From Octopus vulgaris (taxonomy: Eukaryota): a stretch of DNA of 64,000 nucleotides. Positions within the stretch are counted from its first letter, which is position 1; every line of letters begins with the position of its first letter. Made by a program: the position numbers and the translations under genes. Under the pieces are notes generated by a model. The model searched no databases, was not told the origin of the DNA, and saw only the letters and a program-made list of their open reading frames with translations. Of this stretch, positions 6,023-51,494 are shown piece after piece. The DNA is taken from positions 52,514,001 to 52,578,000 of the forward strand of contig OX597820.1 of the NCBI GenBank assembly GCA_951406725.2, given 5' to 3'.

Positions 6023-6412
6023 GAAGAGTGCCACATCATGTGAAATTCGCTGAACAATATTTCGGCATATAGCGTGCCTTCCACAGGTTCAAAATTACAT
6101 GTCAGTCTACTTCAATTTTTGTTAAGACTATATAGGACCGAGGTAACTCATCCAGAAGTTAAACATGCTAGGTGCCGAAATATTGTTCAACGAATTTCAC
6201 ATGATATGGCACCCTTCTATTTATTTGTGTTTAACTTAAACAACTTAAACAACAACAATAACAACAACAACAATAAGAAGAAGAAGAAGAAGAAGAAGAA
6301 GGAGGAGGAGGAGGAGGAGGAGAAGAAGAAGAAGAAGAAGAAGAAGAAGAAGAAGAAGAAGAAGAAGAAGAAGAAGAAGAAGAAGAAGAAGAAGAAGAAG
6401 AAGAAGAAGAAG

Positions 6413-7006
6413 AAGGAATATATTCACAGACACGACAGAGTTGGGACCTATATACACTGGAAACTATGCCAACATTATGGAATAACAACAGAAAAAAGAT
6501 GGTATAGGCACACACCAGAAAAGGTCACAGAAAACGAGAAAGCAACCATACTCTGGGATATGCCAATACACACAGATAGAGAAATTAAGGCCAACAGACC
6601 AGATATAGTTGTCAGAGATCATGAAGAAAAAAAATGTTTTCTAATTGATGTATCAATACCAGAGGATGACAACGTGTCTCTAAAAGAAATGGAGAAACTT
6701 TCAAAATACAAAGACCTGGAAATAGAGGTAACCAGAATGTGGAATCTAAAAACAGAAACAATTCCTATCATAATAGGTGCATTAGGTATGATAAAAAATA
6801 TTCAGACAAATACATAACAAAAACACCAGGACTTACAAACACATATAACATACAGAAAATTGCACTACTAGGCACTGCACACATCCTACGCAGAACACTT
6901 TCCATACAATAACCATCAGAGCATCACAACAAATCACAGCACATACCCAAGGCACACAGAGCTGCGCTCGGTAGTGAAGTGAAAGCACGATATAAAAAAT
7001 ATACTA

Positions 7007-28996: not shown

Positions 28997-29420
28997 TCGT
29001 AGGCGTGACTGAATGGTAAGAAGCTTGCTTCCTAACCACATATTTCTGGGTTCAATCCCGCTGCAGGGCACCTTGGGCAAATATCTTCGACTATGGCCTC
29101 GGGCCAACCGAAGCCTTGTTAGTAGATTTGGTAGTCAAAACCAAATGAATCCTGTCGTATTCATATATATATATATGTGTATGTGTGTGTGTTTGCCTGT
29201 TATTGTGTTTGTGTGTATGTGTGCATGCGTGTGTATACTTGTGAATCTGTTTGTTCTCCACTACCGTTTGACAATCGCTGTTGGTGTGTTTATGTCCACG
29301 TAAATTAACATTTCCATAGAATAGATCGATAAGTGCCAGGCTTTAAAAAAGGACTCGAGTCGATACATTCGATAGACGATACTTCAAGGCGGTGTCTCAT
29401 AATGGCTGTAAGCTTATAAC
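28997..29420 (+). mobile_element. SINE family A, diverged full copy
   Basis: gtcgtaggcgtgactgaatggtaagaagcttgc..gggttcaatccc..gcaccttgggcaa, then an internal (TA/TG)n tract and a degenerate 3' half. Confidence 0.8.
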
Positions 29421-29603
29421 TGGAGGAGAAAAAAATACATATATATATATACATATGTATATACTTACATCTATATATATATATGTGTGTGTACATATGT
29501 ATATATGTATATGTATATATACTTTGATACTTTGATAGGTTTCGGCCATTATTGGCCCAGGCCATGTCTAACTTAATAGCACCACCTGGTGAAGTCTTTC
29601 AAG

Positions 29604-32600
29604 TCAGAATTTGGGCACTATGGCCCACTCAAGTAGAGAGTTATTGTTTACAGAGACATATCCGGGTGTAGGGGGTTTATCCGGGATTTCTTGAAGGAAT
29701 CTGTCCAAAGACTTCTTGAACCCTATAGGGTCAGTTTCTGTTTTAATGTGTTTTGGTGTAATGTTAAAGAGAGCGGGGCCAATTGAGGTGAAATAATTGT
29801 GCCGTATTGTTGTTATGAGATGAGAGTGCGATTTTTGTTTTGGGCGGATGGCACGGGGCCCAAGCCTTGGATGTACCTTAAAGGTGATGCCAACATCATT
29901 TGGGCAATGCTGATGGAATATTTTCCACATCATGCAGATGATGTAGCGCTCACGACGACGTTGGAGAGAATAGAGTTTTAGCTTTTCTAGTCGACCCCAA
30001 TAGTCGAGGCCTGTCATGCCATCTATCTTTTTTGTGATTGCCCTTTGAGGTGCTTCGACTTTTTTGATACCTTGTATTGTGTGGGGAGACCACAGTGGAC
30101 AACAGTATTCAAGGTGGGGTCGGGCAAAAGTGGAGAAGAGAAGGATAATGGTGTGGATATCTCTCGACTGGAAAGTTCTGAGAATCCAGGAACACATTCT
30201 GCGGGCCATGTCAACTTTGGTGTTTATATGAGTGGCCCAGCTTACGTTGTTGTCCACAATTACTCCCAAGTCTCTGATGTTGTTGGACGCCGCGAGAGTT
30301 TCACCTGAAGGAAGGGAGTATGGGAGTTTCAGGGCATCCTCTTTTCCAAAGTGGATTAGCTCAAATTTATCCTCGTTCAGCAGCATATTGTTTTTTTCTG
30401 CCCATTGGATAACAGCCAGTAGATCTGACTGAAGGCATGTCCGGTCACTCGCCTCATTTATGACCTTCTGTAGCTTGGAGTCATCAGCAAAGATTTTTAT
30501 GTTGCTGTGCTTGATGATGTCATTAATGTCATTAATGTAAATGATGAAAAGAAGTGGGCCCAGCACAGTGCCTTGCGGAACGCCACTACTGACTTTGGCT
30601 GGGCTTGATTTTACCCCTTCAACTACAACCTGTTGAGATCTGTCTGTCAGGAAACACTTAATCCATTTCAGTAACTTTCCAGAGACACCAATGTTGGATA
30701 GTTTTTTCAATAGGATCTTGTGATCGACCCTGTCGAAGGCCTTACTGAAATCAAGGTAGATGACATCGGTGTTGGAGCCCTCTCCCAAAGCTCTCAAAAT
30801 GTCCTCAAAGTGATGCAGGAGCTGCGTTAGGCAGTCCCTTCCATTACGGAACCCATGTTGGTTGGAGATCAGCCGTCTGTTGCTTTCCAGAAATTGGGTT
30901 ATTTGAGATCTCACCACCCTCTCAAATACCTTGATGATATGAGAGGTGAGTGAGATCGGACGGTAATTCACTGCAAGGGACTTGTTTCCCTTTTTGAAAA
31001 CTGGGACAACAGACTGGGACAGAAGGTTTTTTGGAATATAGCCAGCATCCAGTGAGTTTCTCCACAGATTAGCAAGGGGAGATGCAAGTTGGTGTCGACA
31101 CACCTTCAGGACACAAGCAGGGAACCTATCGGGGCCTACTGCTGAATTGTGTTTTATTTCGTTTATCGCCGCTAAGACATCAGGGGCACTAAACGTTATG
31201 TCCGATATAGTGTGTTGGGGGTTGACATCACTGATACAGCCCAGATCGGCCATATCAGGATTGCTGAAAACAGAGCAGTATTGTTTCTGCAGTATCTCGG
31301 CCATGGATTTGGCATTATCTTGGAGAGTGCCAGTTTCGTCAATTAGAGGGCCTACAGTGGAGACAGTGACCCTGCGTTTCCTCGCAAATGAAAAGAACAC
31401 TTTGGGGTTGAGTTTGATTTTTTCAATGGCCCACTTCTCCTCAGCTGATCTTTGGTTATTGATGAGGGACTTCATGCATTGTTGGAGGTTATATTTTTTG
31501 GATTCAAGCAGTGCGATAGCCGTCGAATGTGTGTGTTGCTGTTGGCAGTACTTTAGTTTGTTAATTTTTTTGTTTGTTCTTTTTATTTTTCTGATAATGG
31601 TTTTTCTGTTTTGGGGGATTCTGCACTTTTTGTTCACAGGTCTTGGTGGGGAGTGTTTTGCACATATGTCTGTGACGGTGTCTACAAAGATCTGCCAAGA
31701 TGTTTTATGGTTGGTGGAGATGTGTGTATGTGTAAAGGACCAGTCAACATTTGATAGCTCGTTCCTGATTGCATCCCAGTTGGCTTTATGGAGATCCATG
31801 TTGTCAAATGGGTGGGCTGGAGGAAGGTCACTAGGATTAGCTTTCGGCTGGTGGAATTTCATGTTACAGAGAACCATGTCATGGTCTGAAAGAAGGGTTT
31901 TTTCCACTGTAACGTTATGTATAGTGTTAGTGTGGTTACTAAACACTAGGTCCAAAATGTTCTGATGTCTTGTTGGTGCAAGGACAAGTTGGGACAAGAA
32001 AAACTCATTCGTAAAGTCGAAAAGTGACTCTGCTGCTTCTTTGTCAGCGGTTGAGGCGGGAGTGCTTGGTTTCAAACAGTTTGTAGTCCAGTCAACACAG
32101 GGTAGATTGAAGTCTCCCATCATGAGTATGTTGCTAGAATGGCACTGTTGAATAAAGCACTTAATGCTGTTGAGGCATTCTTTAAAGCACAGTATGGGTG
32201 TTTGGGGCGGCCTATAGAGCCCAATTACTGTCAGATCATTGGCTTTGTTGTGCACGGTGACTGATTCACAGTAGCCGTTGGAGAATATACTATTTCCATC
32301 TGCCGTAAATGAATCATGCAGGAAAATGGCAGTTCCACCCTTCCTCCTGCCGATACGATCCGCGCGGATGGTTGTGAAATTCTTCACTCTCACTTCGGCT
32401 TCCAAGTGGGAGTTGTCAAGGTGGGTCTCAGTGAGAATGAAGAAAGGGATGTGGTGTGAATGGTTACCAACCCAGTCTTCAATGAATTGGACCTTCCATT
32501 TTTGTGCATTGATGGAAGGGCTGACACCTTGTGCATTGAGTAGGAATGTGGAGGTTAGTGTAGTGGCTGGTTTTGACTGTTGCAGAGGGCTTGGATTTTT

Positions 32601-33218
32601 TGTGTGTGTTAGTGGCAGCAATGTGGGGAATTGGTGCACTGGGGTAATAGCATAGGATGGTGTTGAGTGATGGCTAGAATGTTTTTGTAGTATCTCTTTT
32701 GCCATGTTCAACATGGCTAAAGAATTTTCCTGCTTAGGGAGCAGTTTTTGGCTGGAGGTGTGGTTGCACTGTTGGATAGGGTTGTAGTTTCCACTTTTGT
32801 TGTTGTTGTTTTTGTTTTTGTGTCTTCCTGAAAAGACTGGACCAGCATTACTGCAGCATGGTGTGTTTCTATTTTTATTGTTATTCAGGTTTGTGTGTTG
32901 GCTTGAGGCCCCGTTTCTGTTTGTGCGTCGGGTCCCTGGAAGATGAGTGAAGGGACAGTCACTCAGTAGACATGTTCTCTCACGTTGGGAATACCGGCAG
33001 ATTTTGGGACTCCGAGTTGTGTGTGTTTTGAATTTCGATTTACTATTTGGTGGTGTTGATGTTATTGTGGGATGCGTGCTTTGGCCTTGGCCAGTAGTGC
33101 GTCTAGTGCCGGGTAGATGCGTGAAGATGCAGTCACTATTTGTGCAGAGTCTCTGGCGCAGTGAATAGCGGCATATTTGGGGATTTCTTGTTTGTGCCGT
33201 GGGGGCGCATTCTGCTTC
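29604..33218 (-). CDS. LINE pol frame: 2x CCCH zinc finger, APE endonuclease, reverse transcriptase (first ATG at 32714; frame open to 33218)
   Basis: APE motifs: LNAQG, LTETHL, YRPP, MGDFN, PTRH..ILDLVF, SDHD. RT motifs: YRPISLTS, QHGFR, YLDFSKAFDRVDH, SGVPQGTVLGPLLF, FADD. By manual translation the same frame has no stop up to 33218 and includes CRYSLRQRLCTNSDCIFTH (33117-33173) and CRYSQRERTCLLSDCPFTH (32943-32999). Confidence 0.93.
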   Translation of the reverse strand, partial: EAECAPTAQTRNPQICRYSLRQRLCTNSDCIFTHLPGTRRTTGQGQSTHPTITSTPPNSKSKFKTHTTRSPKICRYSQRERTCLLSDCPFTHLPGTRRTNRNGASSQHTNLNNNKNRNTPCCSNAGPVFSGRHKNKNNNNKSGNYNPIQQCNHTSSQKLLPKQENSLAMLNMAKEILQKHSSHHSTPSYAITPVHQFPTLLPLTHTKNPSPLQQSKPATTLTSTFLLNAQGVSPSINAQKWKVQFIEDWVGNHSHHIPFFILTETHLDNSHLEAEVRVKNFTTIRADRIGRRKGGTAIFLHDSFTADGNSIFSNGYCESVTVHNKANDLTVIGLYRPPQTPILCFKECLNSIKCFIQQCHSSNILMMGDFNLPCVDWTTNCLKPSTPASTADKEAAESLFDFTNEFFLSQLVLAPTRHQNILDLVFSNHTNTIHNVTVEKTLLSDHDMVLCNMKFHQPKANPSDLPPAHPFDNMDLHKANWDAIRNELSNVDWSFTHTHISTNHKTSWQIFVDTVTDICAKHSPPRPVNKKCRIPQNRKTIIRKIKRTNKKINKLKYCQQQHTHSTAIALLESKKYNLQQCMKSLINNQRSAEEKWAIEKIKLNPKVFFSFARKRRVTVSTVGPLIDETGTLQDNAKSMAEILQKQYCSVFSNPDMADLGCISDVNPQHTISDITFSAPDVLAAINEIKHNSAVGPDRFPACVLKVCRHQLASPLANLWRNSLDAGYIPKNLLSQSVVPVFKKGNKSLAVNYRPISLTSHIIKVFERVVRSQITQFLESNRRLISNQHGFRNGRDCLTQLLHHFEDILRALGEGSNTDVIYLDFSKAFDRVDHKILLKKLSNIGVSGKLLKWIKCFLTDRSQQVVVEGVKSSPAKVSSGVPQGTVLGPLLFIIYINDINDIIKHSNIKIFADDSKLQKVINEASDRTCLQSDLLAVIQWAEKNNMLLNEDKFELIHFGKEDALKLPYSLPSGETLAASNNIRDLGVIVDNNVSWATHINTKVDMARRMCSWILRTFQSRDIHTIILLFSTFARPHLEYCCPLWSPHTIQGIKKVEAPQRAITKKIDGMTGLDYWGRLEKLKLYSLQRRRERYIICMMWKIFHQHCPNDVGITFKVHPRLGPRAIRPKQKSHSHLITTIRHNYFTSIGPALFNITPKHIKTETDPIGFKKSLDRFLQEIPDKPPTPGYVSVNNNSLLEWAIVPKF

Positions 33219-33841
33219 CTATGTTTCTTTAAGTTTTTGTTACTGCAGTAGTATTGAGGTGGTGATGTGGGGGAAGAGGGCAGTGGTTTCTTATTTGGTT
33301 TTCTGTTGGTATTTTTGGTGATAGAAGACGATGGTGGCAGCGGTGGTGATGATGATGATGATAATTGTGGTGGTTGCTGTGAGAGCGGTGAAAAGATACT
33401 GGCATTTAGTGAATCGTCTAGTAAGCTAGAGTTGAGGAGTGGCTGTTGTTGTTCTTGTTGCTGTGGCTGTTGTTGTTGTTGTTGTGCCTGACCGATGTCA
33501 GGGTCAGCCATTGTGTTGGGAACCAGGAGTGGCTCATTCTGTTGTTGTTGTTGTTGTGGCTGCTGATTTTCTAGCTGTTGTTGTTCTTGAACTGTGAAAA
33601 TATGTAGAAGCTTTTCATAATGGCCTCTTATCAGTTTGAAAGATACTTCGATATGTTTCAACTTGCTACGAATCTGTTTGACGGATCGTGTGTTGACCAC
33701 TTGTGATGTTTTTTCGGCAATCTCATTCAAACACAAGACATTTAGATTTTCTGTCTGGGAAAGAGAGAGCCATGTGTTTATTAAAACATCAATTTCGTTA
33801 TCAGACCAATTTCGTCTGTTGCAGGCCTGCAAGTTAGTCAT
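33062..33841 (-). CDS. LINE N-terminal ORF: Myb/SANT(trihelix)-like domain, polyQ and Ser/Pro-rich linker (last ~45 codons probably out of frame)
   Basis: RRNWSDNEIDVLINTW...NEIAEK....TRSVKQIRSKLKHI fits the Myb/SANT-like pattern R.NW...E...LI..W...IA......R...Q...K. It is followed by polyQ and S/P-rich low-complexity sequence. Confidence 0.72.
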   Translation of the reverse strand: MTNLQACNRRNWSDNEIDVLINTWLSLSQTENLNVLCLNEIAEKTSQVVNTRSVKQIRSKLKHIEVSFKLIRGHYEKLLHIFTVQEQQQLENQQPQQQQQQNEPLLVPNTMADPDIGQAQQQQQQPQQQEQQQPLLNSSLLDDSLNASIFSPLSQQPPQLSSSSSPPLPPSSSITKNTNRKPNKKPLPSSPTSPPQYYCSNKNLKKHRKQNAPPRHKQEIPKYAAIHCARDSAQIVTASSRIYPALDALLAKAKARIPQ

Positions 33842-34134
33842 GTTTGTTTTTCTTTTGTTTGTTTTCCTTTTGATTTTTGAAAATATATATATTCTTTCTT
33901 GGGAGTTAAAGAAGTGTATATATATATAAATGTTCTCTCTTAAGGGTGTGAGTTTTTGATTATTTGGTTGTTTGAGGATATTAAAAGAAAAACAGGTGTA
34001 TATAACAATTTGTAGTTAAATGAAAACGTACTTACGGGTTTGTAGGCAAACACGTGGTTACAAATATATATATATTTAAGGTCAGTTAGTTTTGAAGCTG
34101 TGTAGCTTGCTACTGACTCGGGAGAGAAACAAAT

Positions 34135-34166
34135 AGACGTCCGTCCAGTTCAACAGTTAATCCACT
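34135..34166 (-). promoter_or_regulatory. Putative internal Pol II promoter at the LINE 5' end (Inr-like AGT plus DPE-like GGACGT)
   Basis: The element starts agtggattaactgttgaactggacggacgtct. GGACGT at about +25 to +30 resembles the downstream element of jockey/I-type LINE promoters. Confidence 0.45.
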
Positions 34167-34327
34167 ATATATATATATATAAATATATATACATATATAT
34201 ACACATATATACATATATATATACACATATATACATATATATCTATATAGACCTATATATATATATATACATATATATTTATATATTCATGCATATGCTT
34301 ATATATATACGCATACATATATGTATG

Positions 34328-34359
<32 letters not shown>

Positions 34360-34381
34360 TGTATATATACTTATGTATAGA

Positions 34382-34430
<49 letters not shown>

Positions 34431-50300: not shown

Positions 50301-51494
50301 GACATGCAGGAAGTAAATAGACACCTATACTTTTCAAAATCTTTTATTTAATATGCAAAGTGAACAATTGGAATGTAATTGATAGGTAGGACTACATACT
50401 TTAGTATTCAGTTGACATTCCCTTTGCGGTTTTTAATTCAGAAACTCTTTTTGGCATTGAATTGCTGAACATTGTGATTGTCTCTTGTGGAATGTCTGTC
50501 CACTTTTCACGCAACAATCGAAACAATTCATCTTTAGATTTACGTTTCTGTCGAGTTTTTCGTATAGCTCTATCTAGTATGCTCCGAAAATTTTCAATTG
50601 GGTTCATAACAGGAGATTGGCTCGGCCAAGGAAGCTTTTTGATCCCATTTTCAGTCAGCCATTGTTGATTCCTTTTCGCTGTGTGGCATGAAGCCCCATC
50701 TTCCATGCATAAAAACTCATTTTTCATTATGTTATCGGAAGTAGTCCTTGCTTAAGTATTTCGATGTATTTTTCAGAGTTTATCGTTCCAACACATTCAA
50801 TCAGCTCAGAACGACCAGTACTGGTTACAGCTCCTCAAAACATTATAGAGATACCACCATGTTTCACAGTTGATTGGAGTCGTTTCAAATCAAATTCTGA
50901 CATCTCCTTAACCCATTTCTTTCTTTTCACGATAAGAAATAGTTTAAGGAGAGGTTTTCTTTTAGCTGCTTGTCCATAATACCCAAGCTTGTGCAGATAT
51001 GTAACACACGTTCTTGGATTAACCTCTAGTTGTTTTGCAATGTCAGAAGCCTTCGAACGGGATTCATTTTCCAGAATTCTCTTCAAACAGCCAAGCTTCC
51101 TCTCTGAGGATCCAGGTTGGCTGCGACGAGAATCTGTTGATTCTTTTCCTTGGCCTTTAAATTGTACTATAATTCTATTATTTCTTTGGCCTTTAAATTG
51201 TACTATAATTATATTAACAGTAGCAAGAGGAATTTGAACATTTTCGGCAATTTTTCGCTAAGTTCAACCTCAGATTGCCCAACAATACGACCACTTTGAA
51301 AATCTGACAGTTCTGCTGAATTTTTTGTGCGTGGCATGGGTACTCTTCGCAAATGTCTTACATAATGGCACTTGAAATGAAAAACAAAAAAAACAATAAT
51401 TACTTTGTAAATTCTACACCGCTGAAAACATTAAGACGCTTAGATCAGAAATTTTAGAAATTAAACGTGTCTATTTACTCCCTGCATGTGCATG
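50299..51494 (-). mobile_element. Defective Tc1 (DD34E) transposon, copy 2
   Basis: TIRs catgcaggaagtaaatagacac / gtgtctatttactccctgcatg match at 21/22 positions. The transposase pseudogene (50401-51337) has MEDGASCH, LPWPSQSPVMNPIEN and SMPKRV..GMSTEY*. There is a 36-bp tandem duplication at 51145-51216. Confidence 0.9.

What the first reader, a model, noticed from the sequence alone, without database searches (positions are those of the whole stretch)
29521..34166. Intact young LINE with an unusual Myb/SANT - polyQ - 2xCCCH - APE - RT architecture
Seen: a stop-free APE-RT frame, a plausible 5' promoter, an 8-mer tandem tail, a Myb/SANT-like N-terminal domain and two CCCH fingers. I cannot see an RRM, CCHC knuckle, PHD or esterase, the usual ORF1 domains. 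Known: Myb-like domains occur in site-specific non-LTR elements (R2 N-terminus, TRAS). Inference: this is a single-polyprotein CR1/L2-group LINE. Its Myb/SANT domain could guide it to (TA)n DNA and its CCCH fingers could bind RNA in place of a classical ORF1p. It may be active or recently active.
Basis: partly seen in the sequence, partly recalled or inferred. Interest (0 to 1): 0.8.

Follow-up and report, generated by a model that had tools for sequence, protein, structure and literature searches.

The report
Octopus LINE with HIV-type frameshift site
This jumping gene (a CR1-type LINE, likely from an octopus) has two overlapping genes rather than one, and it and its relatives keep a seven-letter 'slippery' sequence just where the second gene's reading frame opens, so ribosomes likely slip back one base, as in HIV, to make its copying enzyme.

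Summary
The LINE, the Myb/SANT domain, polyQ, two CCCH fingers, APE and RT are real, but the single-polyprotein reading is wrong. In the window Myb and fingers lie in different frames. Contigs of 4 of 4 runs show that this copy carries compensating indels. The family has ORF1 (Myb-polyQ-2xCCCH, about 410 aa) and ORF2 (APE-RT) in the -1 frame, with no AUG before the endonuclease. The only in-frame slippery heptamer of ORF1, U_UUU_UUA, sits 12 nt into the overlap. 19 of 19 related loci (about 12 families, ORF2 24-77% identical) carry the same heptamer where the -1 frame opens. Stops in that frame: 160 of 1578 codons before it, 0 of 792 after. A locus found through RT has A_AAA_AAC there. Best reading: programmed -1 frameshifting makes an ORF1-ORF2 fusion (inferred, not assayed). 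Clade CR1. Relatives have a PHD-like domain and three fingers; Myb was seen only here. -1 shifts are reported for Dictyostelium TRE5-A/TRE3-A, and this scan noted one in shark CR1s on other DNA.

The parts
29520..34166 (-). Full-length copy of a CR1-clade LINE, about 4.65 kb
   Evidence: clade
33842..34166 (-). 5' UTR, 325 nt; internal promoter presumed, not tested
   Evidence: contigs reach 34139-34165 in 4 runs
32609..33841 (-). ORF1 of the family (about 410 aa: Myb/SANT, polyQ, Pro/Ser linker, 2 CCCH fingers, helix, Pro/His tail); split in this copy
   Evidence: the natural protein P0002 changes frame against the window near 32695 as predicts
33623..33817 (-). Myb/SANT-like domain (PF13837)
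   Evidence: single-sequence fold was uninformative
33443..33589 (-). Glutamine-rich tract
   Evidence: 25 of 49 residues Q
33201..33205 (+). G5 run, one letter shorter than in all four runs; breaks ORF1 of this copy between Myb-polyQ and the fingers
   Evidence: table 4
33117..33173 (-). CCCH finger 1 (C-x8-C-x4-C-x3-H)
32943..32999 (-). CCCH finger 2, a duplicate of finger 1 (66 of 99 nt alike with flanks)
32718..32721 (-). Place of the family's slippery heptamer U_UUU_UUA; this copy keeps only 3 of the 6 T
32612..32733 (-). ORF1/ORF2 overlap of the family, 124 nt, ORF2 in the -1 frame
32661..32713 (-). Predicted hairpin starting 4 nt after the heptamer; candidate stimulator, weak
   Evidence: z -1.4 to -1.8; 19 of 200 shuffles fold as well
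32689..32689 (+). Extra base of this copy; makes the fingers read in frame with APE-RT here
   Evidence: table 4
31872..32546 (-). APE endonuclease; the first AUG of ORF2 (32123) lies deep inside it
30261..30989 (-). Reverse transcriptase (FADD at 30480-30491)
29604..29606 (-). ORF2 stop codon
29520..29535 (-). 3' tail: two copies of an 8-mer ending in AAGTA; relatives have short tandem tails, most with the same core
29435..29521 (.). TA-rich microsatellite, 3' flank
34166..34427 (.). TA-rich microsatellite, 5' flank; no target-site duplication can be delimited

Best explanation
This is a slightly damaged copy of a two-gene CR1-clade LINE whose enzyme gene (APE-RT) overlaps the first gene in the -1 frame and is likely made by programmed -1 ribosomal frameshifting at a conserved U_UUU_UUA site. 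Shown: two ORFs in run contigs, the -1 overlap, the heptamer at the point where the -1 frame opens, no AUG before the endonuclease, and the same layout across a lineage of relatives. Inferred: most ribosomes read ORF1 to its stop and give a 410-aa protein whose CCCH fingers would bind the element's RNA; a minority slip at the heptamer and give a protein of about 1400 aa (Myb-polyQ-2xCCCH-linker-APE-RT), like Gag-Pol of retroviruses, which would set the ORF1p:RT ratio and keep the ORF1 domains on the enzyme. A stem 4-9 nt downstream may stimulate the slip (weak support). The fusion would then insert copies by target-primed reverse transcription (established for APE LINEs), with 5' truncation. 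In this family a Myb/SANT domain stands where relatives have a PHD-like domain; whether it steers insertion to (TA)n is untested.
For:: the same three indels at full depth in the dominant contig of 4 of 4 runs (2 organisms, 4 studies). ORF1 411 aa, ORF2 -1, overlap 124 nt, one canonical in-frame heptamer in all of ORF1, 12 nt after the -1 frame opens; first ORF2 Met at codon 205, after the LTETHL motif at 101; 19 of 19 loci, picked by the finger motif and not by the junction, have T TTT TTA in ORF1 frame, 0-63 nt after a stop in the -1 frame (0 nt in L017/L018); in 17 of 19 the -1 frame runs from it into APE. Control: 1 of 31 xFL tripeptides in ORF2 bodies is coded so; codon use predicts 0.02-0.04.: -1 frame stops 160 of 1578 codons upstream, 0 of 792 between heptamer and ORF1 stop (11 family representatives), while the +1 frame keeps 35 of 759. 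L020, found through RT, has another canonical heptamer (A_AAA_AAC) 21 nt into its -1 overlap, without FL; 46 of 46 ORF2 homologues are at most 1130 aa although 1724 was allowed; none of 26 finger hits carries APE or RT.
Against: No protein, ribosome-profile or reporter data. For the octopus overlap alone the heptamer is weak evidence (11% of shuffles have one). The stimulator is unproven: folding z-scores run from -2.9 to +0.6 in 13 sequences; the 8-bp stem is 91% paired but its covariation does not beat shuffles (105 of 500); the octopus hairpin begins only 4 nt after the site. L015, L019 and L020 have an AUG before the APE motif. Seven of the 12 families are close kin (53-77% ORF2 identity), so the counts are not independent and the Fisher value is overstated. 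L008 is one fused ORF through an indel behind a kept heptamer. The family sequence rests on collapsed contigs, none spanning the whole element.
Confidence: 0.78

Rival explanations
1. ORF2 is made by termination-reinitiation near the ORF1 stop, AUG-independent as in L1 or coupled as in SART1; the heptamer is a by-product of a conserved Phe-Leu helix.
For: This is the mechanism described for L1 and SART1 (PMC2881922 passage; PMC5009743 passage). In L019 an AUG lies next to the ORF1 stop, 3 codons before the APE Asn. FL opens a predicted amphipathic helix.
Against: Does not explain 0 of 792 stops in the -1 frame from the heptamer on, the fixed codons (19 of 19 against 1 of 31), or L020's different heptamer. 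In 15 of 19 loci the ORF1 stop falls two codons before the APE motif-I Asn, inside the first strand of the domain.
Confidence: 0.1
2. The T6 run is a transcriptional slippage site: RNA polymerase adds one U, which puts ORF2 in frame.
For: A homopolymer run at the right place gives the same fusion; L020 has A6. Contigs drop rare variants, so cannot exclude it.
Against: The run is only 6 long, the seventh letter is fixed (A in 19 of 19, for 13 of them), and both heptamers fit the X_XXY_YYZ rule (rule recalled). No 7-T variant is listed.
Confidence: 0.06
3. One reading: one polyprotein Myb-polyQ-CCCH-APE-RT read from a single frame.
For: The window has fingers and APE-RT in one frame; L008 is a single 1427-codon frame; single-ORF PHD-APE-RT CR1s exist outside this clade (L024, L027).
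Against: Myb is in another frame even in the window; 4 of 4 runs, P0002 and 17 of 19 loci show two ORFs.
Confidence: 0.04

Closest known systems
Octopus sinensis CR1 clusters 46, 59, 96 (PMC10294476, Additional files 27 and 30)
   Same: RT stretch shown is nearly letter for letter that of the window; classed Jockey superfamily, CR1 clade, with 52, 37 and 23 RT members.
   Different: Only the RT was used there; the passages read say nothing of ORF1 content or the junction.
Dictyostelium TRE5-A and TRE3-A
   Same: APE-type LINEs said to need a -1 frameshift for ORF2 (PMC5911963 figure legend).
   Different: Amoebozoan, tRNA-gene-targeting elements of another group; the legend gives no slippery site or comparative test.
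Retroviral gag-pol -1 frameshift (HIV-1 U_UUU_UUA; A_AAA_AAC of other retroviruses)
   Same: Same heptamers in the same frame, overlap of a structural and an enzyme ORF, candidate stem downstream (heptamer identities recalled; ALV gag-pol -1 shift seen in PMC11835228 passage).
   Different: Non-LTR element; no protease or integrase; APE-RT enzyme; stimulator not shown.
CR1/L2 ORF1 types I-V (PMC4120745)
   Same: Modular ORF1 with swapped N-terminal domains; PHD is common.
   Different: The words CCCH, Myb, frameshift and overlap do not occur in the main text; this ORF1 fits only the unclassified type V.
Shark CR1 LINEs with U_UUA_AAC plus stop
   Same: CR1, AUG-less ORF2 in the -1 frame, conserved heptamer.
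   Different: Other heptamer, placed at the ORF1 stop; here it lies 40-100 codons before the stop. Unchecked AI note.
Drosophila HeT-A
   Same: Non-LTR element with a reported frameshift (PMC5009743 passage).
   Different: Shift is within gag; no RT.

Membership tests
CR1 clade (Jockey superfamily) | RT groups with CR1 references | tested here: met
   Indirect: near-identical RTs are CR1 in a published tree with Repbase references; my tree had no named references.
CR1 clade (Jockey superfamily) | ORF2 with APE then RT | tested here: met
CR1 clade (Jockey superfamily) | Short tandem-repeat 3' tail, no poly(A) (feature recalled) | tested here: met
   two 8-mers; similar tails in 8 relatives
CR1 clade (Jockey superfamily) | 5'-truncated copies outnumber full-length ones | tested here: inconclusive
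   Summed contig depth rises towards the 3' end in three of four runs, but that depth is no copy number.
Proto2 clade | RT like Repbase Proto2 entries | tested here: not met
   Proto2 rows seen differ by eye (mostly GV[RK]QG[GS], YADD) from the window (GVPQGT, FADD).
ORF1 types I-IV (RRM+CCHC, transposase 22, PHD, esterase) | One of these domains in ORF1 | tested here: not met
   No such Pfam hit in the window frames. Relatives show a PHD-like Cys pattern by eye with no Pfam PHD hit.
Canonical -1 programmed frameshift signal | X_XXY_YYZ heptamer in the zero frame inside a -1 overlap | tested here: met
Canonical -1 programmed frameshift signal | -1 frame open from the heptamer to the downstream enzyme | tested here: met
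   17 of 19 loci and the octopus family; L008 fused, L013 cut by contig end
Canonical -1 programmed frameshift signal | Stimulatory stem-loop or pseudoknot 5-9 nt downstream | tested here: inconclusive
Canonical -1 programmed frameshift signal | Measured transframe product | not testable with these tools
   needs reporter or proteomics
Myb/SANT-like DNA-binding domain (PF13837) | Profile score at the curated cutoff | tested here: met
   29 bits against 27 for the 84-aa piece; 25.4 for the whole frame
Myb/SANT-like DNA-binding domain (PF13837) | Three-helix fold | tested here: inconclusive
   single-sequence model pLDDT 64, pTM 0.42, no Foldseek match
Microsatellite-targeting LINE | Most insertions in one repeat type | tested here: inconclusive
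   3' loose-end consensus of 3, 4 and 3 contigs ends TA-rich in three runs; one other flank is not; background 2.6%; only 24 of 287 loose-end rows were shown

The most novel reading that the evidence does not exclude
A broad invertebrate CR1 lineage expresses its reverse transcriptase like a retrovirus, by -1 frameshifting at an HIV-type heptamer into an ORF1-ORF2 fusion, with an uncatalogued CCCH-finger ORF1; the octopus branch swapped in a Myb/SANT domain that, carried on the fusion enzyme, steers insertion into (TA)n microsatellites.
Probability: 0.25. Interest if true: 0.85.

Novelty: new variant of a known kind. Interest (0 to 1): 0.68.

Why it matters
How LINEs make ORF2p is an open question; the tested animal cases (L1, SART1) use reinitiation. 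Here a whole animal CR1 lineage shows the sequence marks of retrovirus-style -1 frameshifting, and a 150-nt junction makes it testable in one reporter assay. If true, ORF1 domains ride on the RT enzyme, which changes how RNP assembly and target choice are thought of for these elements. It also means that such overlaps should not be scored as disabling frameshifts in TE libraries. The ORF1 (CCCH fingers with a swappable PHD-like or Myb head) is not among the catalogued types in the paper I could check.

Tried and rejected
No genome is held for this window, so copy number and flanks could not be surveyed. Word-index searches with the finger region among 662-2107-aa proteins and with the Myb piece found nothing. 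Expression: no RNA holder listed on record; 'RNA?' labels are guesses, so nothing is claimed on transcription. A slippery site for the window's own Myb/finger overlap: none; that overlap is an indel. Proto2 identity rejected. Viral contigs gave no relative; the finger alignment could not be used on genome contigs. Of 29 RT-selected loci I inspected 13 with upstream DNA; only L020 had a two-ORF junction of this lineage, three were single-ORF PHD-APE-RT outside the clade, the rest were fragments or other layouts. Single-sequence fold of Myb and its PDB searches were uninformative. The fold of a relative's fingers was confident (pLDDT above 90) but Foldseek gave only weak hits, E 0.57-7.3, mostly CCCH RNA-binding proteins. 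Rfam hits are TA-repeat noise below gathering scores. Repeat search of the whole window returned microsatellites. The sea-snake Proto2 supplement gave no sequences in the part read (1 of 135). Earlier-finding searches by sequence and by domain words were empty.
Full report
Observation. The - strand from about 34166 to 29520 holds a 4.65-kb LINE between two TA-rich microsatellites. It has two long frames, not one: frame A (ATG 33841, stop 33062, 259 aa) with a Myb/SANT-like domain and a Q-rich tract, and frame B (33218-29604, 1204 codons) with two CCCH fingers, APE and RT. The Myb match passes the Pfam cutoff for the 84-aa piece (29 against 27 bits) but not for the whole frame (25.4), and is backed by the ESM Atlas. 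The fingers are C-x8-C-x4-C-x3-H duplicates with Pfam scores below cutoff. So the parts are real, but a single polyprotein is not what the window shows.

What the family looks like. No genome is held. Twenty of 24 listed runs, from 9 studies and 2 organisms, hold the stretch; I laid 4 of them. In 4 of 4 the dominant contig has one more G at the run 33201-33205, three more letters behind 32718 and one fewer at 32689; three long contigs show 11 gap letters and a net of -3, which leaves an in-frame 6-nt difference in a skipped repeat. Substitutions against those contigs are few (for example 0 to 6 over 1.2-2.5 kb), so the copy is young or close to the family's main form. Frame counting with the three indels gives ORF1 of 411 aa (Myb, polyQ, both fingers, tail; stop at about 32610) and ORF2 in the -1 frame, opening at 32733, overlap 124 nt, first Met at codon 205, inside APE. 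The window's finger-APE fusion and its Myb/finger break come from indels that cancel out. Whether they are mutations of this copy or assembly errors I cannot tell. A natural protein, P0002, aligns to the window with a frame change at the same place and ends like the predicted ORF1.

The junction. The three missing letters are half of a T6 run. In the family the only canonical in-frame heptamer of ORF1 is U_UUU_UUA, 12 nt after the -1 frame opens. Alone this is weak: 11% of shuffled overlaps have one. I therefore tested relatives. HMMER with the finger region gave 26 hits, none with APE or RT; 15 aligned as ORF1-like proteins, most with an xFL motif after the fingers. I predicted that xFL is coded T TTT TTA (note) and fetched 19 metagenome loci with that alignment. 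In 19 of 19 the heptamer is there in ORF1 frame, 0-63 nt after a stop in the -1 frame; in L017/L018 the -1 frame opens exactly on it. In 17 of 19 the -1 frame runs from it into APE; L013 ends with its contig and L008 is fused by an indel further on. The loci fall into about 12 families by my grouping, with ORF2 identities of 24-77% between families and 29-47% to the window. Controls: 1 of 31 xFL tripeptides in ORF2 bodies is coded this way, against 0.02-0.04 expected from codon use; in 11 family representatives (L008 left out) the -1 frame has 160 stops in 1578 codons upstream and 0 in 792 between heptamer and ORF1 stop, while the +1 frame has 46 of 1580 and 35 of 759. The first Met lies after the APE motif-I Asn or far inside APE in 15 of 17; L015 and L019 are the exceptions. 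A second scan by RT (29 loci, 13 inspected) gave one more junction of this lineage, L020, with A_AAA_AAC 21 nt into a -1 overlap and no FL, though it also has an AUG at codon 40. All 46 ORF2 homologues are at most 1130 aa. In an RT tree of 72 sequences without named references, the window, the 11 heptamer loci long enough to include, and L020 lie in one clade (support 0.85), apart from single-ORF PHD-APE-RT elements.

Stimulator. Hairpins are predicted just downstream, with z-scores from -2.9 to +0.6 in 13 sequences. In 9 closer loci a 7-8-bp stem starts 8-9 nt after the heptamer, 91% of cells pair and one pair has a two-sided change, but covariation does not beat shuffles (105 of 500). The octopus hairpin is weak (z -1.4). 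The stimulator is a lead only.

Mechanism. Shown: two ORFs, -1 overlap, heptamer, purge of stops from the heptamer on, lack of AUG in most. Inferred: tandem tRNA slippage at the heptamer gives an ORF1-ORF2 fusion of about 1400 aa at low rate, beside abundant ORF1p (0.78). Rivals are reinitiation (0.10), transcriptional slippage (0.06) and a single polyprotein (0.04). RNA binding by the fingers is inferred from the CCCH class; a relative's fingers fold with pLDDT above 90 and their weak structural hits (E 0.57-7.3) are mostly CCCH RNA-binders such as MBNL1, CPSF30 and ZAP.

Myb and targeting. Relatives have a helical N-terminus, a PHD-like Cys pattern seen by eye, and three fingers; 0 of 26 finger hits, 0 of 10 locus ORF1s and L020 hit a Myb profile. 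The octopus fingers both match the third finger. So Myb looks like a branch-specific swap. The 3' loose-end consensus of 3, 4 and 3 contigs ends TA-rich in three runs, one further flank does not, and only 24 of 287 rows were shown; background is 2.6% of 10-mers. Flanks of relatives with readable 3' ends are not TA repeats. This fits, but does not show, a Myb role; in APE LINEs the endonuclease usually sets the target (recalled).

Comparison with what is known. The RT is nearly identical to O. sinensis clusters 46, 59, 62 and 96 in the alignment of PMC10294476 (supplement search); Table S7 classes 46, 59 and 96 as CR1 with 52, 37 and 23 members (I also saw passages, and section 9). Proto2 rows differ. 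PMC4120745 (passages and term counts) has no CCCH, Myb, frameshift or overlap; PMC13343379 and PMC11203168 likewise by term counts; PMC9115989 (passages) describes octopus RTE elements only. A -1 frameshift is stated for TRE5-A/TRE3-A (PMC5911963 legend) and a frameshift for HeT-A gag (PMC5009743 passages from the first 300,000 of 449,034 characters); L1 and SART1 use reinitiation (PMC2881922 passage). PMC1965478, PMC7846101, PMC11835228 and bioRxiv 10.64898/2026.09.24.754024 were seen as passages and add nothing on this. Ten searches found no report of this site or ORF1 in invertebrate CR1s; Repbase Reports and subscription papers are outside the library, and older CR1 papers may note overlapping ORFs (recalled, unchecked). 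That U_UUU_UUA is the HIV-1 site is recalled. This scan earlier noted a -1 site in shark CR1s (unchecked).

Verdict. A new variant of a known kind: a CR1 lineage with strong comparative signs of programmed -1 frameshifting and an uncatalogued ORF1, whose octopus branch carries a Myb/SANT head. Interest 0.68.

Noticed in passing
L008:1643-4847: ORF1 and ORF2 form one 1427-codon frame through an indel behind a kept heptamer, much like the window copy's accidental fusion; copy lesion, assembly error or a fused subfamily.
   Followed up: partly
L001-L016, L019 junctions: In 15 of 19 loci the ORF1 stop lies exactly two codons before the APE motif-I Asn of the -1 frame.
   Followed up: partly
L020-L048: LINE contigs inside GTDB bacterial and archaeal genomes, most likely animal host DNA binned into MAGs.
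   Followed up: no
L024:2350-5910, L027:4924-8532: Single-ORF PHD-APE-RT CR1-like elements outside the heptamer clade.
   Followed up: partly
window 34138-34146 (- strand): Two overlapping GGACG words 21-29 nt from the 5' end, like the DPE of jockey-type internal promoters (motif recalled, untested).
   Followed up: no
window 29000-29420: A SINE-like segment next to the 3' flank, resembling octopus tRNA-derived SINEs (recalled, untested).
   Followed up: no
window 50835-51257 (-): Tc1/mariner transposase remnant (HTH_Tnp_Tc3_2, E 7e-4, below cutoff).
   Followed up: partly
window 6400-6817 (+): Fragment resembling the C-terminal endonuclease region of an R2/R4-type retrotransposon (motif recalled; Pfam gave only low-complexity hits).
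   Followed up: partly
window 32583-33309 and 33391-34028: One contig of run X5 skips both stretches: an internally deleted derivative lacking Myb, fingers and junction (table 5).
   Followed up: no
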